Position numbers and translations under genes: made by a program
Assembly (NCBI GenBank): GCA_000002445.1
Contig: CH464491.1
Span: forward strand, 2,848,001-2,912,000
Direction: 5' to 3'
DNA length: 64,000 nt
Source of the DNA: Trypanosoma brucei
Lineage: Eukaryota
Notes under the pieces: generated by a model
Seen by the model: only the letters and a program-made list of their open reading frames with translations
Databases searched by the model: none
Told to the model about the DNA's origin: nothing
Part shown: positions 12,596-64,000 of the stretch, piece after piece
Layout: each line of letters starts with the position of its first letter
Numbering within the stretch: position 1 is the first letter of the stretch

Positions 12596-12654
12596 AAGCG
12601 GCAATCGTTGCATCCACATATTTTTCTCTTTGTTAGGTGTAGGTTGTTTCACTG

Positions 12655-12686
12655 TTGCTGTTGGTGTTGGTGTTGGTGTTGGTGTC
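12655..12686. repeat. (GTTGGT)n microsatellite
   Basis: The run gttggtgttggtgttggtgttggtg is directly visible. Confidence 0.9.

Positions 12687-14204: not shown

Positions 14205-14208
<4 letters not shown>

Positions 14209-14246
<38 letters not shown>
14209..14246. repeat. (TA)n microsatellite (about 19 units)
   Basis: Directly visible. Confidence 0.95.
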
Positions 14247-14250
<4 letters not shown>

Positions 14251-16009: not shown

Positions 16010-16024
<15 letters not shown>

Positions 16025-16042
<18 letters not shown>

Positions 16043-16079
16043 TGTGCGTGCGTGCGTGTGTGTGTGTGTGTGTGTGTGT
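16025..16079. repeat. Compound (TA)n-(GCGT)n-(GT)n microsatellite
   Basis: The sequence tatatatatatatatatatgtgcgtgcgtgcgtgtgtgtgtgtgtgtgtgtgtgtg is directly visible. Confidence 0.95.
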
Positions 16080-17893: not shown

Positions 17894-17927
<34 letters not shown>

Positions 17928-18078
17928 ATCAATACCCGTACGCATGTGCATTTGTGCACCGTTTAGATGTTACCTTTACCTCATTCCTTTTACTTCTGTT
18001 GGGTTGCCTTGCCTCATCCTCACTCTTTAGCGGGGCGGCTACTGAAGCAGAGGGTACCGTAGTACATATCATAGCCGA

Positions 18079-45572: not shown

Positions 45573-46271
45573 ATGGGGGTGCCAACAATGGAACGAAGCC
45601 ACGGTCGTCGCTCACCCGACGAGGTCCGTTACCCTCACATTGTGCTCAACGTGCTTGGACAGAGTTACAGTAGCGCATGCATCGAAGTCGGAAGCACGCG
45701 GGTCGTTTGCGCCGTACATCACCCACAACAACTAATTGATGAGTACCGCGGGAGTCGAGGACGTGTTGCCTGTACAGTGCGAAGGTCCTCTCGCGCGCAA
45801 AAGCATGAATTAGCATTTCGAGCAGACGTCACACCAGAAAAAGACCTGGCCTTGGCGTTAGAAGGTGTAGTTGAGCAGGCAGTTGTGTTGGAGAAAATAC
45901 CGCAGCTGTTGGTGGAGGTTGCGGTAGAGATCCTCGCAGAGGATGGCGGGCTTTGGGACGCGATAGCCACGGGTGTGTGTGCCGCACTGGCGAGTGGGGG
46001 ATTTGAAATGTACGACACTTTTTCCGCCTGCGGTGCCGCGCTCCTGCCCGACGGCTCCATCGTGACCGATCCCAGCGCCACCGAGTGGAACACTGCTAAG
46101 GCCACGGCGGTCACGTGTGCCATGTTGAACTCAGGAAATATGTGCTTCACCGCGCAGCGGGGGTCGTGTGAGCCGACCACTGCACTCGACCTTGTGATGG
46201 CTGCTTTGAAGGGAACCTTGGCGCGTAAGAATGTCATCTCATCTCAGTTGTGCGAACAGTTTGCATTTTAG
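45573..46271 (+). CDS. RNase PH-like exosome subunit (RRP41/RRP46 family)
   Basis: The protein HGRRSPDEVRYPHIVLNVLGQSYSSACIEVGSTRVVCAVHHPQQL... matches the RNase PH N-terminal pattern (DGRRxxELR...G.ADGSA.IE.G.T.V.C.V.GP). At about 25 kDa it is typical of kinetoplastid RRP41-type subunits. An alternative start is 45588. Confidence 0.5.
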   Translation: MGVPTMERSHGRRSPDEVRYPHIVLNVLGQSYSSACIEVGSTRVVCAVHHPQQLIDEYRGSRGRVACTVRRSSRAQKHELAFRADVTPEKDLALALEGVVEQAVVLEKIPQLLVEVAVEILAEDGGLWDAIATGVCAALASGGFEMYDTFSACGAALLPDGSIVTDPSATEWNTAKATAVTCAMLNSGNMCFTAQRGSCEPTTALDLVMAALKGTLARKNVISSQLCEQFAF

Positions 46272-47741: not shown

Positions 47742-48746
47742 ATGACGATTGTTGCGGACTGTGGAAACTCACAGGCAGTGACATCCGTGTGCACAATGGG
47801 AACGCCTGAGTGCGATGAGGAGCTCAGACTCTTTCTGCGTTGTTTGCGCGCCCTTCATCCGCATGTGCAAGTGGTAGTGGGATGCACATCTGGCATGATC
47901 AGCCCTGGTCGAAGTGCGAGCAGTGCCTTCGCTGACTTCGGTATGGATGAAAAAATCGAGTGGGTTCCCTGTCTCGATCCTTACCTACCCATCAACAGGG
48001 GCACAATGGAACAGCAGCACGGGGTGTGGTACCCCTCGCGCCATGCAGACTTCATGATGGAAAAGGCAAACTTGATGGAGCGCGCGATGATGCTGCACAG
48101 TCCGCAGAAGCCTTGCGGGGGCGGTCCAGAATGCGTTGTGGCGTTCCTCGACTGTGACGTCGTCTTGCTGGGAGAGCTTCCGTGCATCCCATTTGGCACG
48201 CAAGTGGCGTTGTCACCGCATCAACTGCGTACTCGAGACGAAGCTCTCTTCGGCAAGTATAACGGTGGATATGTTGTTGCTACCACCCCTTCTGTTATCT
48301 ATGAGTGGAGGCGCGCAACACAGTACTCGAGGTACTTTGACCAAGCCTCGCTAGAGTGCGTGGCCAACAGTTTCTCATCCACTCTATACGAGTTGCCACC
48401 GCAACACAATTACGGATACTGGCGGCTCTTCCAGACTTACCGAGTAGATCCACTTGCTGAAGCGAAGCAGTTTTCTATTAAGCCAATGGGCAGCCCCCGC
48501 CAATGGACCCTCTGCTACGAGGGAGCCCCGCTCAGATCCATTCACACGCACCTTCTCACATCAACATGCCGGCAAGGGCGGGACGTTCAGGCATTTAACA
48601 CGCTCATAAGAAGATGGATACAAAGGTGCGTTCAACCTCCACACCGGGTGACAACCGCAGCAGTTGCGGCCAACCGGCTCTATGAGGTGTGTCTCGGTCC
48701 TTACCTGAAAGTGGCTGGTCAAAAGTTGTCCAAAGCGCCGCCATGA
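47742..48746 (+). CDS. Hypothetical protein (334 aa), possibly GT-A-like (DxD) nucleotide-sugar transferase fold
   Basis: A complete ORF with non-repetitive composition. ...VVAFLDCDVVLLGELP...YNGGYVVATTP... resembles the DxD motif region of GT-A glycosyltransferases. This is speculative. Confidence 0.4.
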   Translation: MTIVADCGNSQAVTSVCTMGTPECDEELRLFLRCLRALHPHVQVVVGCTSGMISPGRSASSAFADFGMDEKIEWVPCLDPYLPINRGTMEQQHGVWYPSRHADFMMEKANLMERAMMLHSPQKPCGGGPECVVAFLDCDVVLLGELPCIPFGTQVALSPHQLRTRDEALFGKYNGGYVVATTPSVIYEWRRATQYSRYFDQASLECVANSFSSTLYELPPQHNYGYWRLFQTYRVDPLAEAKQFSIKPMGSPRQWTLCYEGAPLRSIHTHLLTSTCRQGRDVQAFNTLIRRWIQRCVQPPHRVTTAAVAANRLYEVCLGPYLKVAGQKLSKAPP

Positions 48747-51700
48747 GGTTTCTACGACACTTTGCTCGGGTATCGTTACTGCGTTGTAGCTGTGTTCTTT
48801 TTCGTTCCTTTACTTCATCTGCAGTCCTTTCAACGCCGTAGATTGCACGGCACATTTTTACATCCCCAACGATGGAGTGTGACATGACCCTTTTACAAAA
48901 GTGTAAGGCCTCTGCAGAGCGGCATGCTCAGCTTCGTAAGGGACCCTAATGGTCCCCTAGAAAGGTTAGCGTCAAAACTCACAAAAAAAACAAGTAGGGG
49001 TTTCGGCTGCTTCCCTTTTTTGACACGGAAACCCTGATGGCCCTCTCCTCCCCATTATCCCCCTTAAGTTGAGTATGCATTGTGGCTGCAACGATGCCAC
49101 ACTTCTTTCCACTAGCTGTCTATTTTTCCCCTTGTCTTTGCCCCAAACGGGTGCGCGCATACACAACCGTACGAGTCGCCACCCGAGGAAACTGCTGACC
49201 TCTATGGCACTCTTGCATCCGACAACGGTACAATGTTTGCATGTGAAAAATGGAAAATGAGGGGAGAGAAATAGAAAAGGAAGTGATGTCATACAACCAA
49301 AGCACCCGCCGACGCAACGAGAGCGGTGAGTACGGTTGAGGCAGGGGTACTCACAATTGGCTCGAAATAACAAAGCCCACAAAATCCCACCCCAGTTTGC
49401 TTTGATGCCCATTAGCCCAAACACTGGACAGATCTCTTTATATATACGACGGGCACGAGACGATTAGTCAAAAACGTCTGTTCCGTCAAACGGAGAATAC
49501 ACTCGCTCCCCCCCCCCTCCCTTTAACACGAGTGTCCTCCGAAACTCAGTAACGTGAGAGTGTCGAGAGTTGAGGCAGCAACCTCGTAGGGATCTTCCGG
49601 TTGGAGGGGAGGCGCACCAAAACACTCTTTGCGTCATCGCACTGAAAGGTCAGATTTCGGCGTAAACGCTGCGGAAGTTGCCAATACATACATACGGTCC
49701 ACAGCACAGGACCTTCTATTTTGCGTCGGAACCACCAAAACACAGCTGCACCACCAACGACTCAGGTCAATGAGAGGTGCGACGTCGGAGCCGTTGATTC
49801 TAAACACGGGAGTACCTTTTTTCCACAGCACAAAGCTGGGACCTTTCCACATCTGGGGGCACCGAACTCTTTGGAAATATATTGGTTTATCCCCTCACGT
49901 TGTGCGTGCCACGCGCCGTTACTCCTAGGATCGGCCAGAGACCTGCACTCCCCCCCTTCCCCGCCCTCCAGCAAACTTCACGACAAGGACGTACTTTCCA
50001 TCCCTCCTTTGAACCAAGGAGACGCTTGAACCGCCGTGGTGTGGGACGCCCGACTGCCCGTTTCTCATCCATTCTGGACAGTCAGCGCCACACTTGCCCC
50101 TTCAAGGTTGGGCACCCACGCACACACCTCACGTTGGGATGTTTATTATCCCTGCCTCCGTCACCGCCATATGCGGCACCATGCGCTCCCTCTCCTGCAA
50201 CGTGCTCCCCACCCACCCCCCCCCCAAAAAAAAAAGCCACGCAACACACCAACTTTAGGTTTAAGGAAGAGCGCAGCGCCGCCTCCGCTATCGGTGGTGG
50301 GCAGCGTCTGACCCCGGCGCCGGAGGGGACCCGCCATCCATTCCATTCCGACTTTACCCAAGTGTATGGAACCGCTGCGCCACAACCCCAAACCGGTTAA
50401 CCTCAGGGGAACCGAGTAGAGAGGCGGGTCCGTTTCCCCTCGCAATCCTTGAGGTCACTTCACGAGTCGTTGCGCAGGAAAAAATAAAAGGAACTTTGTG
50501 AACCGGTGAGCCTTTGAATGCATGTGGAGACGCGGTGTTTCCTTTGGACCCAGTGCTAAGTGGGGAAAGGCTAATACCGTCAGAAGGGGGAAATATCAGC
50601 CCGCTCCGCATTCTTGCCGTGGCGCCGGGCGCCCTTGGTTAAGGCCATGTCTCACTTCGACCGTCTGAACGGCATCGGCAGCAACCCCCTTGGTTTGAGG
50701 TCTGGGAAGAGCTGTCCCCTACAAAGTGCCTTTCCACCTCGTTTACTTCCCCAACTTTTGCGACATCGGGAATTTAAACAGCCAACTGCGACCCCCGATA
50801 TTCCGATTTCGACCGAATGCGGGTATCCTTTGATTCCTAAACCCTGTAGCTGGCGAGGCCAACCTCCTTGACGTAGTGCTTGGGTTATGACGAATGGTTG
50901 CTGCACTCCTTTGTCACGTTCAACTTCTCCGACTCTCCACATGGAAACTTTCTAACAACCCCGCCACTGACAGGATGATTCCGCCTGCCGCATCCGTGTC
51001 AGCCGCTTCGCCCTATAGGGTTAACCTTGTCCACTGCGCTTTGCGGGGCTTGCTGGGAGGGTGTCTGGGAGTGTCATCGCTGACTCTCCATTTTGTAACC
51101 ACTTCGGTTGTTTTTTTCCCCTCTCCTTGTATCCGCACTTGCTGCGCGGATGGTCAGCCACACGTTTGTTCACGCTGTGTGGCACAGGGACCGCGCCTCT
51201 CATTAGATGCTCCTCGAAGTTTCCAGTTGGCAAGCGTCCCGCAACAAGTCCCCTCCCGCGTGTCAGATTCGCCATCCTTGCAACGGCAATACTTCCTATC
51301 TGACAGACTTTTCTCGCGTCTGCCTGTTTTGTGTCTTCCTATTCCTCCACGGGCTCCCTCCTTAACTTTCTTCGCCAGTTTTCAACCCTATTCCCCCTTT
51401 TCAAATGGGCACGGGGTAAGTCCTCTCTCGAAAATGCGCGGTTGCAAGCAAAGCGCCTTCGAGCCTCACCACCACAGGTTATGGGTTCGCTTTGCCCTCT
51501 CCTTTTCTCTGTCTAGGAGTTTGTGGCCTTCGATCCCACCCATTGCCTCGAGGCGATGCGAGTATTTTTCATATCCTCATCACCATCTGGGGTCCCGAAC
51601 AGGGTAATTGAATATTGCCGCAGGGTGCTGACTTCCCACTTTTAGCCAAATGCACACCCCCATTTCGCAATGTTCGCGCGGCCAACCTACAAAATTTTCC

Positions 51701-54700
51701 CTTTCTCTTAGTCGCGATCTACGCTTTAGCGCCGTTGTCAACCCCCCTTCCCCGAAGAAACCGTGGGCTCAGGTATGCACACGCTAAGATTGTTGTCTTT
51801 TGTCCTGTTTTCCATTCCCCGCAGCAAGGAGTTCACGTTTTCAGCGTTTCGTCCGCCACTGCCCCAGGGGAAGATGCGGTTGGGCACCGTACAAACCACC
51901 AGATTGCAGTGTCCTAGCCCCAGTTTCAGTAAGTGGAAACGGTGTGCCTAATCCGCTGGTTGGCGCCACTAAGCTTTGCTTTTGCCGTTTCTGCCTTCGA
52001 AAGCACTCCTATTTACACTCATTCCCGCATTTGTTTGTTTGGGGGGGGAAGGGAAGGGAAGTGCCACGCAGTGTCACCAAGAGTTTTTCAAGGTTTTGGC
52101 ATAGACATGAACAAAGATGGCATCCCTCACCCGTGGTGGGCGGTTCTTCTTTGCAACGAACCGAATACCGACGGGAAGGTCACTCGTGCGTGTATCTGCC
52201 TAGCCTTGAGCAAACCCCCATACACAGCACATTCCTCGTCACACCCCCGCTCAGTGGGACCGGCCGAAAAACCAACGATACATGCTCAGTAAGCTGGCGG
52301 CTGATTATTTCCCTCATCATAATATCGTGCACCAACTCATTCATCTATGCGGAGGTTGATGCGTGCATAACGCGTCGGGATCAGGTCATCTTCATGACCA
52401 AACGAACGAAGCACGCTCTGCGCACGGTAAAAGATTTCATATTCCACCCGAGTGTGGTCGGTCACGTTTTTCCTGGAAAGAAGATGAAATTGAGTAACCG
52501 CCTCAATCTGGATCTGCCCTCCCCTTTGTGTTTTATCATTTTTAGGAACCGTTTGACCACAACATCCTCAGTAGTTTTTGACACCCGTCAGCTGCTGGCA
52601 CGGCCTTTCGCTCAGAATACCATAGCCGCTATGACGCTGCTTGGCTCAATCCTATTTTTTTTTTGGAATTTTCTTCGTGCCTTCGTGAGAGTTTCCCCCC
52701 ACTGGCGCGGCTATCAGCCATCACCGTAGAGCCCTGAGATGCTATCGGTCTGGCGATTGTGGCAGAGTCTCCCTTTTTCATTCATCCTAACACACCCTCT
52801 ATAATTTTTTGTTGTAGCTCCGCAGATGAACGGAATACAGCAGATGGGGCGAGAAGCCCCCCACCCCAGACTCTCCCAAAGATGTCAATTGGCCATCCTT
52901 TTTTGGAGTTCCACATCACCGGACAGCAGCATCTTAGTGCGGATGATACTGCTGATGGCACGCTGGCACGTGCCCAGGGACCGACAAATGAAAAACGGTG
53001 TCCCAGCAAGACGCTGCTGATCCCTGTGCTGTATGATGCCGTAGCCGGAGCACAGCAGTGTTCCCCATGAAAGGAACTCTGCTGGCTCTTGGCTTCCCCC
53101 GATGATACGGGGTACTGGACCATGGCACCACGTTGAAGTGTCTGGCATCGCCAGGGGGCTCAATCCTAAGCCCCCCGCGCGAAGACACACGCCTCACCGC
53201 GACGCCCGGGGAAGCCATATCATGTTTTGATGGAAGCCAAAAATCGGCGGCGCTACCATCAAAGAAACCCTTATAACTGGCGTGCTTCTGCTAAACGTCG
53301 TACTTTGGAGTTCACCGCCAACATCGATATGATGGGTTGTGGCACATTTTTTTTTCCGAAAACTCCTTTTAGAGGCTCTGTTTTTCGACAGTATTTCCCA
53401 AACCTTTAATTTCCCCGTCTTCCCGACGGGCGAAACCACCAACTACTCAATACTTTGTGTCAGGGCGCCCTTCTCGAAAAGTTCCGGAAGGGGAAAAATG
53501 ACGGTGAAACGGGCATCCGAACCAGTGACATGAATGAAAAGGCGAACAGAGCACATTAGCGCCCTCGCCGCTGACAAAACTTTTTCTGTGCCAAGAATAT
53601 TTTGTGTTCATACTTTTTTTTTAGTAGTTTGGAGAAGAAAGCGCGGCTGGGGCGCGTGTATTTTCGCGCTGGTGGCCAAGCGGATTGTGTGTCCGTCCGC
53701 CCTTTTCCGACCTTTGCGGAAACAACATGCTTTACTAAACGCCCATTATCCTGCACTATAATTCCAGTTTTCAAGCCTTCGCCCGCATGGGAATCGAACG
53801 CTGAAATCTTGCTTTTAATAGGGAGCAACGACTGTTGTGTCACGGCAGATGGCACGAGCGGCCTCGCGCCACACCAGTGGTGTTCCGAAAGAGGGTTCAG
53901 CTGTTTAACGCGCGGCGTTCGAGAGCAAACCTATATTTTCACTCCGCACCTGCTAACACCTGAGTTTCACAATTGTCCTGGACATTCACTAAGGGAGAAA
54001 TACATGCGTACGGCTGGAAAATGTAGAGAAGGTAAGTAAAGAAGAGCTTTCACCTCACGGGCCCCTCTCCCATTGTCCTTACTTTAACAGCGCACGTCGG
54101 GAAAGGAGAGGTTCCGTGCCCCCCGCCCGTTTTAGTTTCCTTTAGCTTAAAGACCTCAAATAAATTACTCCCACGTAAACGCTCTCGATGAATAATCTAC
54201 GGGCGGCTCTCTTTTCTACGAATTCCCCGTGGGCCCCGTCGGATTATAACGTTTAGTAGGCCTCCGGGGTTGGGAAGCCCAATCAAAGGTTACATTTTCC
54301 CACTACCCGTTTTAGAAGGGGTGGCGTCGCTCCACACACCGCCATCGACTGAAGAAACCCTTGTGTGTTGGCGAGAACTTTGATGAGCACAACTGGAAAG
54401 TGTTCTCTCTGCTTTCTTGGCTACATTTTATACGGCAGCCCGACCTCGACTTTATAAGGTTGTCGGAGACCCTTCGAGTCCACCAGCGGTGTTGCGCGTA
54501 CGTGGTGTGGATTCACGCCGACCCCCATTGCCATGTGTTCCTTCCCTTACTGAGGAGGTTCTGAGTTTCACCGTTTTGTGTGTCCAGAGCCGTATTGTGG
54601 AGCAGAACCCCTCCCTACATTTGGAGCCCCCAAAGTGTATCCGGACAGTCTCACTCGCGAGGGTGTTCCGCGGCAAGTTTGTCACGGCATTTGGCTAAAC

Positions 54701-57700
54701 GGTAAAGGTCGCGCGTCTATGTTGGTCTTTTAAACCCAAAATATTAGCGCTCTTGCGGCATAATCGCATCCATTCTCCAAGTTCCCAATTTGTGTTCTCC
54801 CATTGCCGATGGGCTGTGCTCTGTTCCACTGCCGCTGCTCATGTAGAGGCCGTTGTGTAACTTTTCCCAGTGCGTGGAGAGTAAGGTCCCTTTTCGGTTC
54901 GGCCATGGGTCCGCAGTACGGGAAACGAGGTATTTGAGATGCTGCAGTCTTGGCTGCGTCTGGGGGCTCCCAGTGTGTTGCTGTGCTCGAGCTTTTGTGC
55001 TTCGTTCTTTTTGTATCCCTCCAGAACGGGCTGTCCTTTACTTCACCGAAACAGCGTTTTGGAGACACAACCACGTCACAAACGGCAAGAGTCCGTTTCG
55101 TGGGAGACCGAAACCCAGAGATTTCACACTTCAGATTTTTTTTTTGAGTGTGAACAAGGGGTAATGGTTTTGTCGGCGGAGGGAAACGCCTCTGGTTTCA
55201 GTATAGGGTTCCCCCACCATCCTTACCGATGGCAAACCGCTGGCAGTTTTTACCCCGTAGGAATGCAGCACGAACCCGCGTCCCCTTAACACACATTCTT
55301 CACCCTGTGCTGCAGCCTGCATGCTCCCTATTCGTCTCTAAGGGTGTCTTCTGGCGACTTTTGTCGACGCATTGTATGGGATATTCCTCGAGGTCACTGG
55401 GAACGTTCCATGGGCGCGGCTTTGATACGCGAGGAGGGGTCGCGGGTGCGACTTGAGTTGTGTTCCCGAGTTGTGTGCAGTACTTAAACTGTCGCGGCGC
55501 CCTCCCACAGGACTCGCCGCGCGTCCGGGCTTGACGGCACTCTCGCGCTACTTCCTTACGAATGGTTGTAGATTGCTGTTGCAGCTGTTATATTCTTGCA
55601 AAGGAAAACAAGCACCAACCGCACCTGTTTTGAAGTTCCTTTTTCAATTCTTCAGAGCGGTTGCTCATGAAAAATAAAATCTCCCTCGTGGGGCTGTGGA
55701 GTCACGCCGTCTCTCTTGCTGAGGTTGTGCAATGTGGAAAGCAGGCTCGATGACTCTTGAAGTCAAATCAGGATGGAAGCACCTGCTCTCAAGGACGACC
55801 GGGTGTTAAGGAAGGCTCGCCTCAGCACTTGGGGTCTCGTTTGAACCGTTGTAGTCGGGCGCATCGTCGTTCCGCCAGAAGTCGGATGCTTGTAAGTTGG
55901 AGGAAGGGCTGTGGACAGGCAACGTGCGCGCGGCACCAATATATATCGATCCGTGTCCACCGATTGCTACTTGGCAAACTTGTTGTACGTGTGTGTGTGG
56001 CAGGAAGGCGAGGGAGGTGTCGCAGCCCCAGAAAAACCTGAAGCATCCTCACGCCTCTCCAAAGTGGGAGTTCACAGTTTCGTTCTCGACTGTTGTCTTG
56101 CCGCCATGATCTTACATTTGATGGGGGACAGAGATTTCAGTGGAACAAACTGCGGGTCTTCTGCGAATGAAGGACGCCTGGGAGCCCGGCTCCACTGCAC
56201 TGCCGCCTTTATGCAGTGGTGCGGTGTCTCGTCGCGGCCCTAAGGGTTGGCAGTTGCGGTGTCTGAGCCCGCTGCAAGGGGGGGGGTCTTGACATTAATA
56301 GCGCAATACTCCTTGGCGATTTGGGCCGCTTGAATGTGACGGGGGTATTCACTGCCTCGTGCTTTCGGGGGAGGCCGGAGCCAAGCGGCGTCCCCGGCCC
56401 GGCAAGCCTTGTGGCGTCCACTAAGATTGAGGTGACTCAAAACGGGATGATGCGCCGTTTTCACTTGAGCCGCCGTCTCTTTTCCCGGGTGGCGTATAAA
56501 CGCGCGCCGACGTACCGTGGAGTATCACGCTAACCGGGATACTGCCGCTGTGGTCCGTGCTTCTAGGTGTATTCCGCACTGATGCAGGGGATGGGTGGGG
56601 ATGAGGGTTGTCTCACATGAAGGAGCGAAGAAAATTAGAAGAATTCAGAGGTCTTCGACAAGCGGGGTTGCACATGGGCGCGGTGCACAAACTATGAGGT
56701 TCCTGCTACGTTACCTGTAGTTTCACACGTTCCGCCATGCGAGCAGTGTTACCATTCGAATGAAGGACGGTGCGGTGTTTGAGGCTCTGTTTACTTTAAA
56801 TACGAATATAAGGACATGAAGGAGAGTGCATTTGTTGCGGAACCTGGTGGAAGGCACCACTGTTTCAACAAAGTGACCAAGCATTTAAAGTTGAGTGTTG
56901 ACCGCATAAAACGTAAAGGCAGGGAGCCGTGCGCCGGGCGGACGTCCATCGTTTCAACTGTAAAGGATGAGTGAGTATACTATTTTGCTTCGATATGCAT
57001 GATTAAAGAAAGTGCTTATTGTGTTGATGTTGCTGTCATGAATGTTCAGGTGGTGTGATGATAGTGATCCACAAAATTTTAATTCATCGCATCCCCATAG
57101 TATTCGGGAGTTCTGGTGAACCGGAGCGTATGGCTAACGCCTTCCCCCTTTTTGGGTGAGTTGATCAAGTCAGTCTTGCGTTTATTTTGCTTAGTTTGCG
57201 GTAGGGAATATGTATTTTCCGGGCACCAGAAGTACTCGGGTGCTTTTAGCGCTTCGTGGCGTATGAGGGTTATTGGAGAAGGGCGGTAACTCTTCTGAAA
57301 TAAATAAGTGGTTGAATGTGTTTAAGTGATGCCTGCCACCACAATTGAAACTCAGCCGATGCGAATCATGTGTGATTTTTGTTTATATGCCTTATGTATT
57401 TTGTACTGATGTGTCTGCGTTTGCTGTACTAAATTTCCCCGCTGATGCTGCACTTGCTGCAGAAGGGGTGGTAGATAGGGCGATGGCTTATGTGATGTTG
57501 CTCCTGAGAGCGGTGGGTCATGATGCGGTTTAAGCCCATTTTGACGGAAAAGAGCGACGGGATTTTCAGTTGGAAAAGTTATGATATTTAATTGTGCATG
57601 TGCTGCATCTCGTGGGAACGGCTCATTCATTATCCTTCGTGGCGTTGTACTGGATGTTTTATCTATGACGGAATGGATAAGGGAAATAAATCATCTGCCT

Positions 57701-60511
57701 TTTCCCCCTTTTCGCTTTGCAGCTACAAATCTAGAGGTAGTGCACCTGAAGTGTTGAAATATTGTTTAAAGAGCGGTTTTAGCATAAGTTTGCGTCGAAG
57801 CAATTTGCTTTTGTGGCACCGAGATCTCTTCATCTTATTTTTGGTCCCACGCTCTTTAATAAACATTCGAACTTACAGTTGCTTGAAGAGAGGCAAAAAG
57901 GATGCTGAGAGCAAAACCTATTTACAGACTTGGTACCAATGCTCATAATCACTTATAATATTACCTAACACGCAGGGAAGGAGATGAACTGTGATTATTT
58001 TGTTTTGCAATGCTGTGCTTTGTGAAGGCAGATGCTTTTCGCTTTCGGTGGCGTCTAAGAAAAGTAATGCAACTGGACAACAGGTATGATTTTGTTCTTT
58101 AATACCCAACGAGTGCTTGCTCGTGTGCTAATGCGTGGTGTCCCGTGATGCTTTCTTAATGTGACCTCAGAGGGGTTGCTGTAGGGAGCAGGGTTTCTCC
58201 TCTTTGCTGGTCCATATCGCACTGTACGCATTGGTTTCAGCTAAGGTGCGTACCTGGAGTAAACAATGCACATCAAAGTGGCTGACGCGGTGCGTGCATA
58301 TATGTGTGTGATGAGGCGGCATCCCTACTGCCTTTGTCCGGAGGTGTTTCCGCGATTCGAATACATGGTCATAATTCTTGGAGGAGGTATGGGAGAGTTT
58401 TTCAAATATTACAAACCCCCATTGCACGTAGAATGTCTGCATATCGTTCTTTTGTAGCAACCGGGGTTCCTTTTTTCTTTTTTTTTTTTGTAAATTTCCC
58501 TGACAGGTCTTGCGTCAGGTTGGGTGGAGACACTGACCCTCCGTTGGACGGGATTTGCCTTCCACCAGCCAAAGGGCGACTCCGTAACCGTTTTGTCGTT
58601 TTTTTTTTTCCAAGAGTGCAATGTTGCACCCTTGTCACCCAGTTTTGTGTGCACTGGAGCGCTCCTTCTTTTGAATGAATAAGCGGCGTACGTCTTGTGA
58701 TTTCTTTGACACAGATGAAAATCACATACCTTAGCTTCTACCATAAACTTCAAGTGGTCTTTTACACTTTCCAACTGTCAGCATTTCCTCTTTTAGTTAT
58801 TACCCGCGTGTCGCACCGTACCGTTACAAAAAAAATAATTGCTGTTTGCTTCAACATCAAGGCATGGTTGTTCGGTTCTTTTATTAGTTACCGAGTGTCA
58901 TCATTGAAAAAACATTAAGTTTTTCATGATGTTTCGTGAGAGAAGGTAGCGTGGCTTATTACTGTGTACGACATGTTTTTTTTTGAGATGGATTGATCTC
59001 ATAGTAAGGGGCACTGTTCCCTGGTTTACGGATGTTATCCCTCCTGAAATATTGTCAGCAACCTGAATTTTTCTTGCGAAGTTATCTCCAGGTGTGTTTC
59101 TGCTGTTGTCATCATTAAAAAAAATTATCCATCGTGAACCCACCGCGCGAATGAAATTACCTCCGGTGGTCATTTTTTTTTTGTACTTCTACCCATTTTC
59201 AGCATTCTATGCGATGGGAGGGCTTACAAACTGAGATGGTACGTTGACAAAATGGATCCAACGAATGTGCTCCTCACGTTTCGTTCAGCGGATATCTTGC
59301 ACGTGTGTTTGTAAAGGTGCACAACCGCATGCCCGTATAGTTAACGTTCACTGACTGCCACGCATCTACATGGCGTTAACAGTGCGCGAACATTGGACTC
59401 CAATATATGCAACTGCATAATAACATGCGTGTTCTTGGTCTTTAAAAGAAAAACTACACTTTTCTGTGCAAGATGTTCTGAGCTGCGGTGTCGGGCGTGG
59501 CCCTTAACTTATTTCTAAAGGGGCATCTCTACCTCCATTTTTTAACCTTAAAAATAACGCGGCCCACCTGCGGCTCCATCGAACAAGCGTTTATTTGTAT
59601 CTGTTTTGCGTTGGAAGACTTCTACTTTAAATATTTTCGGCAAGTGCCATTATTGACTTGACACGTGTTTTTTTGTCCGCGCACTGGGTCACATCCATAC
59701 ATACCTAGGTGGCTGCGTTTTTATGAATGACCATTGTTGTGGTAGTTGCTGACGTGAAAGTGTTGGTAATTGTGGAGGTCGGTATCTGTGTAATATAGAT
59801 GCTGGACGCCGTCGTTGTTATCAAGCATTATATTTCTCTCGTTTTGTTAGTAGCTAAATACCGTTGCGTAGGCCTTACCGAATGTTAAAAATTTTGTTTG
59901 AGTGTATTCAGCGATCCCTCCCTTTACGTTTCCTGTTGTTTTGACATGCTTACCACTGGGTGGTTCGGTGCATCTAGTTGTGTGCTACCTCTGTTCAACC
60001 TTATTGGGATGTATTTTGTACTCTTCGTTCCAGCGCGTGAGGAGCAAGTGGAGAAGGGATTGTAACCGTTCGCTCTCACCAAGGTGGCACAGATTTTGTC
60101 CGGCCAATGTAGTGGGTACGCTAGGGTTTACTGTCTTTTGCACATGTGCGCGGTTTTATTGAGAAACTAAGGGATGCAGACTCGTCAAGTATGTGAATGC
60201 TTTCTTGCAACGCGGGGTGTATTACTGCATTCGTATGGGGTTCCTCTCCACACAGCTTGATGTCTCTAACGTTCTTTTTTGCTTTTGACCCGAAATACCT
60301 GGGTAGCTGTTCTTCCTCTCCAGAGATTTGGGTTAAATAACGAGTTTGGCGGAGATGCGACCATATGCATCCGTACATGGTTCTGTACGTACGCAATGTC
60401 GCTACTGCGTTTAACCAAATAGCATTCACTTGCCCATGCTTACTTTCTTTGCGATGAGAACCACGAAAGCGACCTGTTACTTTTCTATTTAAAAAAAAAA
60501 TATGAAGAGCA
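48747..60511. other. About 11.7 kb with no credible ORF on either strand; + strand pyrimidine/C-rich at 49.5-52.3 kb, AT/T-run-rich at 56.5-60.5 kb
   Basis: The longest ORFs here (51800-52729, 50894-51607) translate to C/R/S/P-rich low-complexity sequence unlike proteins. The region holds the C10A10 homopolymer at 50216-50235. It is flanked by same-strand genes on both sides. Confidence 0.6.
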
Positions 60512-60904
60512 ATGCCTCACCGCTCCACTGTGAGTAAAAAGAGGTCTAACAGTGTAAGTAGACCGACTGCTGCACAAAAATGCGCTGCACAGCCTCGTCC
60601 AACAGCCACCGCAAGCGAAGGGAGATTCCCAATATACGGAAGAAAGCCAGCTGTCACCGAGCCCCACCAACCGCAGGCAATTTGGAACAACACTTCTACG
60701 CGTGAAGATGTTGGAGGACGTGCATTGTATGATAAAGAACTTGCCCATATTGCACAACGACTACACGAGGAGCTGTGCTCTTTTCGACAGAGAACTCAAC
60801 GGGCGCGGATGCGGGAGTGCCTGGCTTACAGTCGGCTCCGACAAATCCTGACCACCCGACTCAGTGTACGAAATATAGTTGAAGAACAATCAGAGGGACG
60901 GTAG
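60512..60904 (+). CDS. Small hypothetical protein (130 aa)
   Basis: An ORF with basic, mildly helical character (...LYDKELAHIAQRLHEELCSFRQRTQRARMRECLAYSRLRQIL...). It is the only protein-like ORF between the gene desert and the repeat gene. Coding status is uncertain. Confidence 0.3.
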   Translation: MPHRSTVSKKRSNSVSRPTAAQKCAAQPRPTATASEGRFPIYGRKPAVTEPHQPQAIWNNTSTREDVGGRALYDKELAHIAQRLHEELCSFRQRTQRARMRECLAYSRLRQILTTRLSVRNIVEEQSEGR

Positions 60905-61285
60905 ATAATGGAGCAGGTACAAGTGCAAGAACCCACACACAATAACAGCAGCAAAGAACACAATAATCCTTAGGCTAATAAAGTACCAAAGTTAAGCCAT
61001 GAGAACTTGCACTTTTCATTATTAACAATTTTTTAACCTTTCCATTTCTCATATATAAATATACACGTATAAAAAAAAGAAAGAGGAGAGCCAACGACGG
61101 CAGCAGCCGCACCGAACAAAAGACGCCTACAACCAAGCACAATCAAACAATAGACGACAAAATACCGGCATCACCACTAGAGAGTATACTAGTGGAAGCA
61201 GCAGAGTGTGGAGGCCAAAGCACCACCGTTGGATTTCTGTGATTTCGTTAACAGCGTTGATACTAAGCAAACTCGTGCTGCAATC

Positions 61286-64000
61286 ATGTCTGAAATAGCT
61301 CACTCTGCGGTGGGTGACGTGCCGATTGACTCTTTTAAAGCAGACAGTCACAATGGTGGAAAAGATGCATGGGTGTGCACCCGATGTGGTAAGGTGAAGG
61401 ATCTTCGGGGTGATCATCTTCGAGGCAAGATGGAGGTCCGTTCTGATTGTTGGCCCTGTGGAAAGAAGGCGACATTCAAGTTGCAAAGCAGGCTCTCGGA
61501 TGACGGTAGTAATAACAACGTCCCTGCAGCTAGCACTGTCGATGATACGCATCAACCAAAAGGCGTCGGGAACGCAACAATAGTTGGAGGATTTCGTGCT
61601 CCTGTCGTTCCTTCAACCGGTGACGAGCACCAGTTTCTTTTCCCTGCTCCCGTACTCCAGTGCTCAACCCCAAGCTTATCAGCAGACTGCTCCTCTGTAT
61701 GGAAATGCTCTATCTGTGGAAAGGTGAAGCCACTTTCTGGTGATCATTTGCGGGGGAAAACAGAGGTGCGAAGCGATTGCTGGCCTTGTGGCTGCAAGAG
61801 AACGTTTGTGTTGAGTCCTGTTGACGGTGAATACGGATGCTCCGCGTTGCCGAAGGAGGATGCATCGAAGACTATTTCAAAGGCCAGCGAGAACGTTAAG
61901 GAGCAAGCTACCACTGGCGCACAAATACCAGTACAACCCGCAGCAATACCATTTAAGAGTGTATTTGATACACAGAGCAGTGGAGATGCGAAACCACCCG
62001 CAGCAACACCATTTAAGAGTGTATTTGATACACAGAGCAGTGGAGATGCGAAACCACCTGCAGCAACGCCATTTAAGAGTGTGTTTGGTACACAGAGCAG
62101 TGGAGATGCGAAACCACCTGCAGCAACACCATTTAAGAGTGTGTTTGGTACACAGAGCAGTGGAGATGCGAAACCACCCGCAGCAACACCATTTAAGAGT
62201 GTATTTGATACACAGAGCAGTGGAGATGCGAAACCACCTGCAGCAACGCCATTTAAGAGTGTATTTGATACACAGAGCAGTGGAGATGCGAAACCACCTG
62301 CAGCAACGCCATTTAAGAGTGTGTTTGGTACACAGAGCAGTGGAGATGCGAAACCACCCGCAGCAACACCATTTAAGAGTGTATTTGATACACAGAGCAG
62401 TGGAGATGCGAAACCACCCGCAGCAACGCCATTTAAGAGTGTGTTTGGTACACAGAGCAGTGGAGATGCGAAACCACCCGCAGCAACACCATTTAAGAGT
62501 GTATTTGATACACAGAGCAGTGGAGATGCGAAACCACCTGCAGCAACACCATTTAAGAGTGATTCCATTAATGGCTTTTTTATTAAGCAAACTCGTGCTG
62601 GAATCATGTCTGAAATAGCTCACTCTGCGGTGGGTGACGTGCCGATTGACTCTTTTAAAGCAGACAGTCACAATGGTGGAAAAGATGCATGGGTGTGCAC
62701 CCGATGTGGTAAGGTGAAGGATCTTCGGGGTGATCATCTTCGAGGCAAGATGGAGGTCCGTTCTGATTGTTGGCCCTGTGGAAAGAAGGCGACATTCAAG
62801 TTGCAAAGCAGGCTCTCGGATGACGGTAGTAATAACAACGTCCCTGCAGCTAGCACTGTCGATGATACGCATCAACCAAAAGGCGTCGGGAACGCAACAA
62901 TAGTTGGAGGATTTCGTGCTCCTGTCGTTCCTTCAACCGGTGACGAGCACCAGTTTCTTTTCCCTGCTCCCGTACTCCAGTGCTCAACCCCAAGCTTATC
63001 AGCAGACTGCTCCTCTGTATGGAAATGCTCTACCTGTGGAAAGGTGAAGCCACTTTCTGGTGATCATTTGCGGGGGAAAACAGAGGTGCGAAGCGATTGC
63101 TGGCCTTGTGGCTGCAAGAGAACGTTTGTGTTGAGTCCTGTTGACGGTGAATACGGATGCTCCGCGTTGCCGAAGGAGGATGCATCGAAGACTATTTCAA
63201 AGGCCAGCGAGAACGTTAAGGAGCAAGCTACCACTGGCGCACAAATACCAGTACAACCCGCAGCAATACCATTTAAGAGTGTATTTGATACACAGAGCAG
63301 TGGAGATGCGAAACCACCTGCAGCAACACCATTTAAGAGTGTGTTTGGTACACAGAGCAGTGGAGATGCGAAACCACCTGCAGCAACACCATTTAAGAGT
63401 GTGTTTGGTACACAGAGCAGTGGAGATGCGAAACCACCCGCAGCAACACCATTTAAGAGTGTATTTGGTACACAGAGCAGTGGAGATGCGAAACCACCCG
63501 CAGCAACACCATTTAAGAGTGATTCCATTAATGGCTTTTTTATTAAGCAAACTCGTGCTGGAATCATGTCTGAAATAGCTCACTCTGCGGTGGGTGACGT
63601 GCCGATTGACTCTTTTAAAGCAGACAGTCACAATGGTGGAAAAGATGCATGGGTGTGCACCCGATGTGGTAAGGTGAAGGATCTTCGGGGTGATCATCTT
63701 CGAGGCAAGATGGAGGTCCGTTCTGATTGTTGGCCCTGTGGAAAGAAGGCGACATTCAAGTTGCAAAGCAGGCTCTCGGATGACGGTAGTAATAACAACG
63801 TCCCTGCAGCTAGCACTGTCGATGATACGCATCAACCAAAAGGCGTCGGGAACGCAACAATAGTTGGAGGATTTCGTGCTCCTGTCGTTCCTTCAACCGG
63901 TGACGAGCACCAGTTTCTTTTCCCTGCTCCCGTACTCCAGTGCTCAACCCCAAGCTTATCAGCAGACTGCTCCTCTGTATGGAAATGCTCTACCTGTGGA
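61286..64000 (+). CDS. Nested-repeat protein: repeated modules each with two Cys4 zinc-ribbon motifs plus arrays of 20-aa FG/FD repeats (nucleoporin-like); 3' end beyond the window
   Basis: I translated frame 2 by hand. It is open from the stop at 61190-61192, the first ATG is at 61286, and it stays open to position 64000. The ORF track does not list it, presumably because it has no stop within the window. Motifs are W-V-C-T-R-C-G-K-V-K-D-L-R-G-D-H-L-R-G-K-M-E-V-R-S-D-C-W-P-C-G and W-K-C-S-[IT]-C-G-K-V-K-P-L-S-G-D-H-L-R-G-K-T-E-V-R-S-D-C-W-P-C-G, both C-x2-C-x17-C-x2-C. These are followed by [PAATPFKSVF(D/G)TQSSGDAKP]n. Confidence 0.65.
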   Translation, partial: MSEIAHSAVGDVPIDSFKADSHNGGKDAWVCTRCGKVKDLRGDHLRGKMEVRSDCWPCGKKATFKLQSRLSDDGSNNNVPAASTVDDTHQPKGVGNATIVGGFRAPVVPSTGDEHQFLFPAPVLQCSTPSLSADCSSVWKCSICGKVKPLSGDHLRGKTEVRSDCWPCGCKRTFVLSPVDGEYGCSALPKEDASKTISKASENVKEQATTGAQIPVQPAAIPFKSVFDTQSSGDAKPPAATPFKSVFDTQSSGDAKPPAATPFKSVFGTQSSGDAKPPAATPFKSVFGTQSSGDAKPPAATPFKSVFDTQSSGDAKPPAATPFKSVFDTQSSGDAKPPAATPFKSVFGTQSSGDAKPPAATPFKSVFDTQSSGDAKPPAATPFKSVFGTQSSGDAKPPAATPFKSVFDTQSSGDAKPPAATPFKSDSINGFFIKQTRAGIMSEIAHSAVGDVPIDSFKADSHNGGKDAWVCTRCGKVKDLRGDHLRGKMEVRSDCWPCGKKATFKLQSRLSDDGSNNNVPAASTVDDTHQPKGVGNATIVGGFRAPVVPSTGDEHQFLFPAPVLQCSTPSLSADCSSVWKCSTCGKVKPLSGDHLRGKTEVRSDCWPCGCKRTFVLSPVDGEYGCSALPKEDASKTISKASENVKEQATTGAQIPVQPAAIPFKSVFDTQSSGDAKPPAATPFKSVFGTQSSGDAKPPAATPFKSVFGTQSSGDAKPPAATPFKSVFGTQSSGDAKPPAATPFKSDSINGFFIKQTRAGIMSEIAHSAVGDVPIDSFKADSHNGGKDAWVCTRCGKVKDLRGDHLRGKMEVRSDCWPCGKKATFKLQSRLSDDGSNNNVPAASTVDDTHQPKGVGNATIVGGFRAPVVPSTGDEHQFLFPAPVLQCSTPSLSADCSSVWKCSTCG
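61940..62590 (+). repeat. 60-bp (20-codon) tandem repeat, about 10.4 copies (FG/FD repeat array, module 1)
   Basis: The motif gcagcaa(c/t)(a/g)ccatttaagagtgt(a/g)tttg(a/g)tacacagagcagtggagatgcgaaaccacc(c/t) starts at 61940, 62000 and every 60 nt up to 62480, with a partial copy at 62540. Confidence 0.95.
63260..63550 (+). repeat. 60-bp tandem repeat, about 4.8 copies (FG/FD array, module 2)
   Basis: The same unit at 63260, 63320, 63380 and 63440, with a partial copy at 63500. Confidence 0.95.

What the first reader, a model, noticed from the sequence alone, without database searches (positions are those of the whole stretch)
48747..60511. 11.7-kb stretch without protein-like ORFs inside a unidirectional gene array
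The rest of the window has roughly one gene per 2.5 kb, but this 11.7 kb has none on either strand, so it is the window's prime candidate for something non-protein-coding. The first half (49.5-52.3 kb) is strongly C/pyrimidine-rich on the + strand, with C10 runs at 49508 and 50216 and C-rich blocks at 49920-50010. The second half (56.5-60.5 kb) is AT-rich with many T-runs. Candidate explanations are: (a) a head-to-tail polycistron boundary, that is Pol II termination and re-initiation, which in trypanosomes lack defined promoters but show GT/C-rich asymmetric sequence and may host tRNA or snRNA genes; (b) a degenerate retroelement (DIRE/ingi-type) or decayed pseudogene array; (c) an unusually long UTR or lncRNA locus. 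I could not recognise reverse-transcriptase, RHS or VSG-like peptide fragments in any frame, nor a convincing tRNA.
Basis: partly seen in the sequence, partly recalled or inferred. Interest (0 to 1): 0.7.

Follow-up and report, generated by a model that had tools for sequence, protein, structure and literature searches.

The report
Gene-free boundary between two trypanosome transcription units
This 12-kb stretch of Trypanosoma brucei chromosome 11 really has no working protein gene and is most likely the ordinary, already-known kind of spacer where one long multi-gene transcription unit ends and the next begins, littered with old and recent insertions of the parasite's common mobile elements.

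Summary
From 48747 to 61285 there is no credible protein gene, tRNA or Rfam RNA. It is the longest intergenic gap in the window: 12.5 kb, against a median of about 0.6 kb.

The locus is T. brucei chromosome 11, between Tb927.11.11050 (a sugar-transferase-like gene) and TbNUP149 (Tb927.11.11080).

- An intact RIME retroposon on the minus strand (52655-53156) with a perfect 12-bp target duplication.
- A decayed RIME-like relic on the plus strand (56311-56650).
- An empty target site (55589-55600) that holds a full ingi element in two other T. brucei subspecies.
- A 1.6-kb low-copy repeat (50668-52264). Its second copy lies about 86 kb downstream at another transcription-unit end.

Synteny with other trypanosomatids stops just upstream of the gap. 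The last gene before the gap is followed by a strand switch in Leishmania and, by called ORFs, in T. vivax. Base composition flips across the gap: G-runs on the minus strand on the left, GT-rich with G-runs on the plus strand on the right.

Best reading (about 0.6): a head-to-tail boundary where Pol II terminates and re-initiates, doubling as a retroposon landing pad. This is a known kind and of low interest. No chromatin or transcript data could be checked.

The parts
47742..48746 (+). Last gene before the gap: nucleotide-diphospho-sugar transferase / glycogenin-like, 334 aa (Tb927.11.11050, Q383H3)
   Evidence: 100% match to the TREU927 and T. equiperdum proteins. In Leishmania orientalis its ortholog is followed by a 7.3-kb gene-free stretch and then a minus-strand gene. 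In T. vivax it is followed by a 5-kb gap and then a minus-strand ORF. In other species it sits in a different synteny block, DHHC-TYW3-prefoldin.
48747..50667 (.). Unique C-rich left flank with G-runs and G-quadruplex motifs on the MINUS strand; candidate termination zone and latent antisense-promoter-like sequence
   Evidence: C10 at 49508-49517, C7 at 49950-49956, C10A10 at 50216-50235. Three of the window's five plus-strand C-runs of 7 or more lie here. Minus-strand G4 motifs at 49032, 49950 and 50207. GC skew about -0.14 over 49-51 kb. A T. equiperdum OVI contig breaks exactly at the C10 run at 50225.
50668..52264 (+). 1.6-kb low-copy repeat with sharp edges. It contains the annotated but non-coding-like ORF Tb11.01.2860, inferred to be Tb927.11.11060 (50894-51607), a weak Pr77-like 36-mer (50850-50885) and a G8 run (52041-52048)
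   Evidence: 98.2% identical to L013 9775-11387, about 86 kb downstream on T. b. gambiense chromosome 11. There it lies 3.1 kb after the last plus-strand gene and before a minus-strand trans-sialidase-like gene. Paralog divergence of 0.75% is close to strain divergence. ORF substitutions are 7 non-synonymous to 1 synonymous. The Pr77-like hit scores 18 against a shuffle maximum of 17.
52643..53168 (-). Intact RIME retroposon (52655-53156, minus strand) with poly(A) tail and a perfect 12-bp target-site duplication GGCTCAATCCTA (52643-52654 and 53157-53168)
   Evidence: 53156-52909 matches ingi nt 1-248 at 97%. 52902-52655 matches ingi nt 5006-5253 at 94%. The duplication and T10 tail were read from the sequence.
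55589..55600 (+). Empty target site TATATTCTTGCA. It is occupied by an ingi retrotransposon (sense on the plus strand) in T. b. gambiense DAL972 and T. b. equiperdum
   Evidence: L007 17915 onward is the ingi 5' end (CCCTGGCG...). L006 14415-17579 is the ingi 3' part plus poly(A), followed by the duplicated target. The two partial copies join into 5,266 nt.
55988..56286 (+). Plus-strand CGTGTGTGTGG (55988-56000) and a G9 run (56278-56286). Both are 10-mer types reported as most enriched on the coding strand at the 5' edge of T. brucei transcription start regions
   Evidence: Wedel et al. 2017 Dataset EV1 gives G10 at 132 against 17, and GTGTGTGTGG at 18 against 1.
56311..56650 (+). Decayed RIME-like relic: a Pr77-hallmark-like 5' end (56311-56394) and a RIME 3'-end-like tail (56612-56643)
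   Evidence: The local alignment to ingi nt 1-85 scores 23, against 12.6 +/- 1.2 (maximum 17) in 200 block shuffles. The 3' end was found as inverted repeat I1 with the RIME tail. The collinear alignment is A1.
56651..60511 (+). AT-rich, G+T-rich (0.57) stretch with long T-runs; candidate body of the transcription start region for the downstream unit
   Evidence: GC 0.44, T 0.33, G above C. GC skew +0.19 and AT skew -0.15 to -0.23. T-runs of 9-12. Wedel 10-mers are more frequent on the plus strand here.
60512..60904 (+). 130-aa ORF restricted to the T. brucei group; whether it is a real gene is uncertain
   Evidence: It is the only gap window with mildly gene-like codon usage. Among 1.84 billion representatives the only meaningful hit is itself; the one other hit is marginal (E 4e-4, 33% over about 50 residues). 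It is annotated in T. equiperdum and T. b. equiperdum. No Pfam match.
61286..64000 (+). First conserved gene after the gap: TbNUP149 (Tb927.11.11080), with zinc-finger-like modules and 20-aa FG-type repeats; runs off the window
   Evidence: Translation and 60-bp tandem repeats. The gene ID is inferred from gene order and UniProt numbering, not from a sequence match.

Best explanation
The gap is a head-to-tail boundary between two RNA polymerase II polycistronic transcription units on T. brucei chromosome 11.

**Inferred mechanism**
- Transcription of the upstream unit (..VPS8-like, EAP4, LRR protein, sugar transferase) ends in the left part of the gap, roughly 48.7-55 kb.
- Transcription of the downstream unit (TbNUP149 onward) starts in a broad, dispersed start region in the right part, roughly 55.6-61.3 kb.
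- The 5' edge of that start region is marked on the plus strand by a GT-repeat, a G9 run and sense-oriented ingi/RIME sequences.

**Shown**
- The interval carries no selected coding sequence and sits at an evolutionary synteny breakpoint.
- It has served repeatedly as a landing pad for ingi-clade retroposons and for a 1.6-kb duplication.

**Not observed**
- Termination and initiation themselves. These are inferred.
For: 1. **Size.** The gap is 12.5 kb with genes on the same strand on both sides, about 20 times the median spacer and more than twice the next largest. Start regions in T. brucei are described as broad 5-10 kb zones. About 40% of termination regions lie between head-to-tail units. 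Dubious hypothetical ORFs are typically annotated inside start regions (PMC9566855).
2. **No constraint.** The gap diverges 2-3 times faster than coding sequence, and its ORFs evolve neutrally.
3. **Synteny.**
   - 36.4-47.4 kb is collinear with T. theileri and T. rangeli up to the LRR gene and then stops.
   - T. melophagium and T. conorhini show the same gene order in their annotation.
   - Contigs end or are gapped soon after the LRR gene in T. conorhini, T. rangeli and T. theileri.
   - T. melophagium has a GC-rich stretch after it, with a short retroposon 5'-end-like match (28 aa, E 4e-4).
4. **The sugar-transferase gene ends a unit elsewhere.** Its ortholog is followed by a 7.3-kb gap and a minus-strand gene in Leishmania, and by a 5-kb gap and a minus-strand ORF in T. 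vivax.
5. **Strand-asymmetric composition.**
   - Cumulative GC skew has its local minimum at about 54-55 kb.
   - The plus-strand G+T fraction is 0.45-0.46 at 50-51 kb and 0.55-0.58 at 57-60 kb.
   - G-runs and G4 motifs lie on the minus strand at 49.0-50.2 kb and on the plus strand at 51.0, 52.0 and 56.3-56.6 kb.
   - G10 and GT-repeat 10-mers are the ones most enriched on the coding strand in the 5' fifth of mapped start regions (Wedel 2017 Dataset EV1).
6. **Retroposon 10-mers in published start regions.** Nine of Wedel's 157 start-region 10-mers are sense-strand RIME/ingi sequences. Sense-oriented RIME/ingi therefore recur at the 5' edge of mapped start regions. Here the plus-oriented ingi site (55.6 kb) and the RIME relic (56.3 kb) sit exactly where the plus-strand GT-rich zone begins.
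7. **The repeat's second copy.** The 1.6-kb repeat's other copy also lies just past the last gene of a plus-strand unit.
Against: - No chromatin, Pol II, primary-transcript or run-on data could be consulted. Searches of five papers' supplements found no entry for this locus.
- Head-to-tail termination regions often coincide with Pol I or Pol III genes, and none is present here.
- The T-rich 10-mers are not specific. The 12.6-18 kb AT-rich spacer in the same window has more of them.
- The plus-strand G-runs are G8 and G9, not G10, and similar G-runs occur in ordinary spacers elsewhere in the window.
- The strongest G-runs (two G10) are on the minus strand, which points away from the downstream genes.
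- The T. theileri 'gap' after the LRR gene is partly an assembly gap of Ns.
- A 5.2-kb ingi inserted at 55.6 kb is tolerated in two subspecies. This places no constraint on where initiation occurs.
Confidence: 0.6

Rival explanations
1. There is no boundary. The gap is an oversized intergenic spacer or 3' UTR inside one continuous transcription unit. It was inflated by retroposon insertions, a segmental duplication and the rearrangement that brought the sugar-transferase gene here. It is transcribed through and processed into unstable non-coding fragments.
For: - Genes on both sides are on the same strand.
- Part of the sequence demonstrably arrived by insertion or duplication: RIME, RIME relic and the 1.6-kb repeat.
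- Plus-strand polypyrimidine tracts occur throughout.
- The window has another 5.5-kb gene-free spacer.
- There are no Pol III genes of the sort that often mark head-to-tail boundaries.
Against: - Identified insertions account for only about 2.4 kb of 12.5 kb.
- The left 7.5 kb has GC of 0.52-0.54, above nearly every ordinary spacer in the window.
- Its skew is inverted relative to the window's other transcribed sequence.
- The synteny-block end and the unit-terminal position of the upstream gene in Leishmania and T. vivax fit a boundary better.
Confidence: 0.22
2. The gap hosts a dedicated non-coding transcription unit. One form would be an antisense, gene-less unit that fires leftward from about 53 kb, making the region a divergent-type start region with a vestigial leftward arm. 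Another would be a long non-coding RNA with a function of its own.
For: - The layout is a mirror image. On the minus strand there is a RIME plus two G10 runs and three G4 motifs over 53.2 to 49.0 kb. On the plus strand there is an ingi site, a RIME relic, a G9 run and a GT-rich zone over 55.6 to 61.3 kb.
- GC skew is negative on the plus strand over 49-55 kb, as expected for minus-strand-sense sequence.
- 14 of 54 unidirectional promoters become bidirectional without SET27 (PMC9566855).
Against: - The gap is the fastest-diverging class of sequence measured across subspecies.
- There is no Rfam hit.
- The minus strand has only one long polypyrimidine tract within 48.7-60.5 kb (52041), so processing signals are sparse there.
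- Nothing shows that a transcript exists.
Confidence: 0.12
3. The gap is mostly a decayed coding array: a DIRE-type degenerate ingi, other retroelement bodies, or pseudogenes of the ancestral neighbours.
For: - The GC content of the left 7.5 kb (0.52-0.54) is like coding sequence and like ingi (0.54).
- One frame is unusually poor in stop codons from 50894 to 52729: 4 and 2 per kb, against 10-18 in the other frames.
- A weak Pr77-like match sits just upstream of that frame.
Against: - No reverse-transcriptase, endonuclease or any other Pfam domain at E <= 0.01 in six frames.
- No tblastn similarity to the ingi protein outside the RIME.
- No similarity to the genes that flank the orthologs in T. 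theileri, T. rangeli, T. vivax or T. melophagium.
- Codon usage is not gene-like.
- The low stop count is largely explained by pyrimidine-rich composition.
Confidence: 0.05

Closest known systems
Non-divergent (head-to-tail) transcription start region paired with a single termination region in T. brucei (Siegel 2009; Wedel 2017; Staneva 2022)
   Same: - Same-strand genes on both sides.
- A gene-free zone of more than 10 kb, matching the 5-10 kb start region plus a termination region.
- A GT-rich, G-run-bearing coding strand on the downstream side.
- A dubious lineage-specific ORF annotated inside.
- Sense-oriented RIME/ingi sequence at the presumed 5' edge.
   Different: - The defining chromatin marks and primary transcripts were not examined.
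- No Pol III or Pol I gene is present.
- The strongest G10 runs are on the opposite strand, giving a divergent-like sequence layout.
RIME / ingi non-LTR retroposons of T. brucei (ingi clade, Pr77 hallmark)
   Same: - 52655-53156 has every RIME feature: ingi 5' and 3' ends, poly(A) and a 12-bp target duplication.
- 56311-56650 keeps the Pr77-like head and the 3' tail.
- Other strains carry an ingi at 55.6 kb.
   Different: These elements cover under 1 kb of the 12.5 kb in this strain. They are passengers in the gap, not an explanation for it.
GC-rich strand-switch domains of degenerate retroelements that act as centromeres in T. cruzi, and retroelement-flanked centromeres in T. brucei (Obado 2007)
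   Same: A GC-rich, gene-free interval between directional gene clusters, at a synteny break, containing retroposon remains.
   Different: - There is no strand switch.
- There is no AT-rich ~147-bp repeat array.
- The chromosome 11 centromere is reported to be subtelomeric (PMC11739655).
- The chromosome 11 synteny break matched to the T. cruzi chromosome 1 centromere involves a contig whose TFIIH p34 gene corresponds to Tb11.01.7730, far from Tb11.01.2850-2880.

Membership tests
RIME retroposon (feature at 52655-53156, minus strand) | About 0.5 kb made of the first ~250 nt and last ~250 nt of ingi | tested here: met
   ingi nt 1-248 at 97% and nt 5006-5253 at 94%, adjacent and collinear. The ingi sequence was rebuilt from loci L006 and L007.
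RIME retroposon (feature at 52655-53156, minus strand) | Pr77 hallmark at the 5' end, a 3' poly(A) and a ~12-bp target-site duplication | tested here: met
   CCCTGGCGATGCC... begins at 53156 on the minus strand. The tail is T10 at 52655-52664 on the plus strand. GGCTCAATCCTA occurs on both sides.
Head-to-tail Pol II transcription-unit boundary (termination region plus start region) | Same-strand gene arrays separated by an unusually long gene-free interval | tested here: met
   12,539 bp against a median of about 0.6 kb. Coding potential, Pfam and substitution tests are all negative.
Head-to-tail Pol II transcription-unit boundary (termination region plus start region) | H2A.Z/H2B.V/H4K10ac/SPARC enrichment with a Pol II peak and 5'-triphosphate transcripts on the downstream side | not testable with these tools
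   No ChIP or RNA data are available here. Supplements of five papers held no entry for this locus.
Head-to-tail Pol II transcription-unit boundary (termination region plus start region) | H3.V/H4.V/base J enrichment on the upstream side | not testable with these tools
   None.
Head-to-tail Pol II transcription-unit boundary (termination region plus start region) | GT-rich, G-run-bearing coding strand across the start region (Wedel 2017) | tested here: inconclusive
   The plus-strand G+T fraction is 0.55-0.58 at 57-60 kb, with CGTGTGTGTGG and a G9 run at 56.0-56.3 kb. The runs are G8 and G9 rather than G10, the T-rich 10-mers are commoner in another spacer, and two G10 runs lie on the minus strand.
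DIRE (degenerate ingi-related element) | Multi-kb element with recognisable, if broken, endonuclease or reverse-transcriptase coding remnants | tested here: not met
   No Pfam hit at E <= 0.01 in six frames. No tblastn hit to ingi frames outside the RIME.
T. brucei centromeric domain | Array of AT-rich ~147-bp (or ~30-bp) tandem repeats | tested here: not met
   Tandem Repeats Finder reports nothing between 47000 and 61935. The literature places the chromosome 11 centromere in the subtelomere.
Protein-coding gene (annotated Tb11.01.2860, inferred Tb927.11.11060, 50894-51607) | Gene-like codon usage, purifying selection, and homologs outside the species group | tested here: not met
   Codon-usage score is negative. 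Substitutions are 7 non-synonymous to 1 synonymous. No Pfam match. The sources name it 'T. brucei spp.-specific', and the cluster members seen are its own paralogous repeat copy. No search for homologs outside the species group succeeded (one search failed its control).
tRNA / snRNA / snoRNA or other described RNA gene | Match to ARAGORN or to an Rfam covariance model | tested here: not met
   (E <= 1). Even the intact RIME's Pr77 gives no Rfam hit, so that family is not in the library.

The most novel reading that the evidence does not exclude
The gap is not a simple one-way boundary. It would be a divergent-type promoter region with a vestigial, gene-less leftward arm running from about 53.2 to 48.8 kb, carrying a minus-strand RIME, two G10 runs and three G4 motifs. 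Antisense transcription from that arm would collide with the incoming upstream unit and help terminate it.

The rightward start region would be seeded by sense-oriented ingi-clade 5' ends: the Pr77 relic at 56.3 kb, and the ingi at 55.6 kb in other strains. Retroposon internal promoters would then have been co-opted to launch a polycistron.

The 1.6-kb repeat found just past the end of two consecutive plus-strand units would be a termination-associated module.
Probability: 0.1. Interest if true: 0.55.

Novelty: already known. Interest (0 to 1): 0.2.

Why it matters
Little is new here.

- T. brucei transcription-unit boundaries have been mapped genome-wide, and RIME/ingi are its commonest repeats.
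- The useful outcome is a clean dissection of one boundary. It is gene-free and unconstrained, it sits at a synteny breakpoint, and it has been hit repeatedly by ingi-clade retroposons.
- The ingi insertion differs between subspecies, so it offers a natural test of whether 5 kb of inserted retroposon shifts initiation of the downstream unit.
- A side observation may interest specialists. Several published 'start-region' 10-mers are simply RIME/ingi sequence.
- A 1.6-kb repeat sits just past the end of two successive units.

Tried and rejected
1. **Hidden protein gene or frameshifted ORF.** Rejected by the codon-usage scan, six-frame Pfam, and the non-synonymous to synonymous ratio.
2. **tRNA, snRNA or any Rfam family.** None found.
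3. **DIRE or another retroelement body.** No RT/EN signal.
4. **Pseudogenes of ancestral neighbours.** tblastn with all ORFs from the T. theileri, T. rangeli, T. vivax and T. melophagium loci found nothing in the gap.
5. **Internal or window-wide repeats.** None apart from short chance matches and the RIME-tail echo.
6. **Centromere.**
   - Rejected.
   - The link to the T. cruzi chromosome 1 centromere synteny break points to a different part of chromosome 11.
7. **Concatenated-ORF protein search.**
   - A 4.6-kb version returned nothing.
   - It also missed a 97%-identical annotated protein known to be in the collection.
   - That negative therefore carries no weight.
8. **Literature look-ups for direct TSS/TTS evidence by gene ID.** Nothing found.
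9. **T. theileri as evidence for an ancestral strand switch after the LRR gene.** Weakened because 3 kb of that gap is Ns.

Full report
**Identity of the locus**

The window is from the Trypanosoma brucei group. A T. equiperdum OVI contig matches 37742-50225 at 99.95%. The flanking proteins are identical to TREU927 or T. equiperdum entries.

- The RNase PH gene at 45573-46271 is EAP4 (Tb927.11.11030).
- The large repeat-containing ORF starting at 61286 is assigned to TbNUP149 (Tb927.11.11080). This rests on gene order and UniProt numbering, not on a sequence match.
- UniProt numbering places the 334-aa sugar-transferase-like gene (47742-48746) at Tb927.11.11050.
- The same numbering places the 237-aa ORF inside the gap (50894-51607, Tb11.01.2860) at Tb927.11.11060.

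Yes. The interval is 11.8 kb up to a 130-aa ORF, or 12.5 kb up to TbNUP149. Other spacers in the window have a median of about 0.6 kb and a maximum of 5.5 kb.

ORFs of up to 309 aa exist, so 'none' is not literally correct. None looks coding:
- Codon-usage scores are far below those of real genes.
- Six-frame Pfam finds nothing at E <= 0.01.
- Substitutions against two other subspecies are mostly non-synonymous in the gap ORFs, 7:1 in 50894-51607.
- The gap diverges 0.95-1.21%, against 0.41-0.43% for coding sequence.
- The 130-aa ORF at 60512 is the only mildly gene-like piece. Its only meaningful hit among 1.84 billion representative proteins is itself.

There is no tRNA and no Rfam match, even at E <= 1. 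The compositional claims (C10 runs, C-rich left half, AT-rich and T-run-rich right half) are correct.

**What is actually in the gap**

Comparison with the orthologous loci of T. b. gambiense (L006) and T. b. equiperdum (L007) was the most informative step.

- **Polymorphic ingi.** Both subspecies carry an ingi retrotransposon, sense on the plus strand, inserted at window 55589-55600 with target duplication TATATTCTTGCA. The window has the empty site. Joining the two partial copies gave a 5,266-nt ingi.
- **Intact RIME.** With that ingi as probe, the window shows an intact RIME on the minus strand at 52655-53156. Its ingi 5' end matches at 97% and its 3' end at 94%. It has a poly(A) tail and a perfect 12-bp duplication GGCTCAATCCTA.
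- **Decayed RIME-like relic.** It lies on the plus strand at 56311-56650. Its Pr77-like head scores 23, against 12.6 +/- 1.2 in shuffles. Its tail echoes the RIME 3' end.
- **Marginal Pr77-like 36-mer** at 50850-50885.
- **1.6-kb low-copy repeat.**
  - The annotated ORF Tb11.01.2860 has a paralog of over 90% identity, Tb11.01.3220.
  - Fetching that locus showed that window 50668-52264 is a sharply bounded 1.6-kb repeat. Its second copy is 98.2% identical and lies about 86 kb downstream.
  - The two copies differ by 0.75% within one genome, no more than strains differ from each other.
- No reverse-transcriptase or endonuclease remnant exists anywhere in the gap.

**Evolutionary context**

- Upstream of the gap, 36.4-47.4 kb is collinear with T. 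theileri and T. rangeli as far as the LRR gene, and collinearity ends there. T. melophagium and T. conorhini show the same gene order in their annotation.
- Assemblies of several species break or are gapped soon after that gene.
- T. melophagium has a GC-rich stretch after it, with a short retroposon 5'-end-like match (28 aa, E 4e-4).
- The sugar-transferase gene belongs to a different block (DHHC-TYW3-prefoldin) in T. theileri, T. rangeli and Leishmania. Its position here is therefore derived.
- In Leishmania it is followed by a 7.3-kb gene-free stretch and then a minus-strand gene.
- In T. vivax it is followed by a 5-kb gap and a minus-strand ORF, and it has an ingi-like relic just upstream.
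- The sequence downstream of this gene is thus a transcription-unit end in distant relatives too.

**Sequence asymmetry**

- The window's genes lie on a strand with positive GC skew. Over 49-55 kb the skew is negative, and it turns positive from about 55 kb.
- G-runs and G-quadruplex motifs lie on the minus strand at 49.0-50.2 kb, and on the plus strand at 51.0, 52.0 and 56.3-56.6 kb. Six of the window's ten G4 motifs are in the gap.
- The plus strand is G+T-rich (0.55-0.58) over 57-60 kb.
- In Wedel et al. 2017, G10 and GT-repeat 10-mers are the ones most enriched on the coding strand in the 5' fifth of start regions.
- Here CGTGTGTGTGG (55988), G9 (56278), the plus-oriented RIME relic (56311) and the plus-oriented ingi site (55.6 kb) cluster where the GT-rich zone begins.
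- Nine of Wedel's 157 enriched 10-mers are RIME/ingi sense-strand sequences. Sense-oriented RIME/ingi at the 5' edge of start regions is therefore a recurring pattern.
- These cues are suggestive, not specific. T-rich 10-mers are commoner in another spacer of the window, and the two G10 runs are on the minus strand.

**Interpretation**

The best reading (about 0.6) is a head-to-tail boundary. The upstream unit would terminate in the left part. The downstream unit would start in a broad region from about 55.6 kb to TbNUP149.

This fits published descriptions: start regions of 5-10 kb, about 40% of termination regions lying head-to-tail, and hypothetical ORFs annotated inside start regions. It explains the gap's size, its lack of constraint, the synteny break and the retroposon accumulation. 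Termination and initiation are inferred, not shown.

Rivals:
- An oversized spacer that is simply transcribed through (about 0.22).
- A non-coding or antisense unit, which would make this a divergent-type region with a vestigial leftward arm (about 0.12).
- A decayed coding or DIRE array (about 0.05).

A centromere was considered and rejected. There is no AT-rich repeat array. The chromosome 11 centromere is subtelomeric. The chromosome 11 synteny break linked to the T. cruzi chromosome 1 centromere maps elsewhere.

**Limits**

- No chromatin or transcript data could be examined, and literature supplements gave nothing for this locus.
- The one broad protein search of gap ORFs failed its positive control and is uninformative.
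- Copies of the 1.6-kb repeat beyond the two annotated ones, and highly degenerate repeat families, could not be searched for in trypanosome genomes with the tools available.

**Verdict**

The feature is of a well-known kind, so interest is low.

Noticed in passing
window 50668-52264 and L013 9775-11387: A sharply bounded 1.6-kb segment is present twice on chromosome 11, about 86 kb apart and in the same orientation. Each copy lies 1.9-3.1 kb past the last gene of a plus-strand transcription unit. The copies differ by only 0.75% within one genome. There is no target duplication or poly(A) at the edges. Its nature (segmental duplication, gene conversion or unknown mobile element) is unresolved.
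   Followed up: partly
Wedel et al. 2017 Dataset EV1 compared with ingi/RIME: Nine of the 157 published 10-mers 'enriched on the coding strand of transcription start regions' are sense-strand RIME/ingi sequences. Examples are CGAAGAAAAT, GGGGGGAAAC, GTGATGGCTG, TAGCATCTCA and TGGGCACGTG. Part of that published signal therefore reflects retroposon copies at the 5' edge of start regions.
   Followed up: partly
window 47742-48746; loci L002, L005, L014, L003: The sugar-transferase-like gene sits in a DHHC-TYW3-prefoldin block in T. theileri, T. rangeli and Leishmania. In T. brucei it follows the VPS8-EAP4-LRR block instead. In T. vivax it has an ingi-like reverse-transcriptase relic directly upstream. 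The gene seems to have been moved by a rearrangement between transcription-unit ends.
   Followed up: partly
window 12596-18078: A second gene-free stretch of 5.5 kb, very AT-rich (GC 0.29-0.37). It has many T- and A-runs, a dinucleotide repeat near 14210-14245, and the window's highest density of T-rich 'start-region' 10-mers on both strands. It could be a long UTR or another boundary.
   Followed up: no
window 61286-64000: TbNUP149 is built from large in-frame modules. Each restarts with MSEIAHSAV and carries two CxxCG...DCWPCG zinc-finger-like motifs plus a variable number (10.4 and 4.4) of 60-bp / 20-aa PFKSVFG(T/D)QSSGDAKPPAAT repeats. Long spurious ORFs appear on the opposite strand of the repeats.
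   Followed up: no
window 50216-50235; L001 end; L006 14315-14414: Public assemblies break inside the gap. The T. equiperdum OVI contig ends at the C10 run of the C10A10 homopolymer. The T. b. gambiense chromosome has a 100-N gap from window 52125 up to the interior of its ingi copy, so about 3.5 kb (including the RIME) is missing there.
   Followed up: yes
L011 12000-15200 (T. melophagium): Downstream of the orthologous LRR gene there is a 3-kb island of higher GC (0.51-0.54, against 0.35-0.42 around it). It has a short retroposon 5'-end-like match on the minus strand (15152-15069) and two small minus-strand ORF calls. This boundary may have held retroposon debris in distant trypanosomes too.
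   Followed up: partly
The search for homologous proteins with a 4.6-kb concatenation of ORF pieces joined by X returned no hit. One piece is 97-100% identical to proteins that are in the collection. Long concatenated queries appear to defeat the word-based candidate step.
   Followed up: yes
window 21575-24049 (minus strand): An 824-aa ORF lies antisense inside the 2,823-aa plus-strand gene (19559-28030). That region has strong purine skew, so this is probably a compositional artefact.
   Followed up: no
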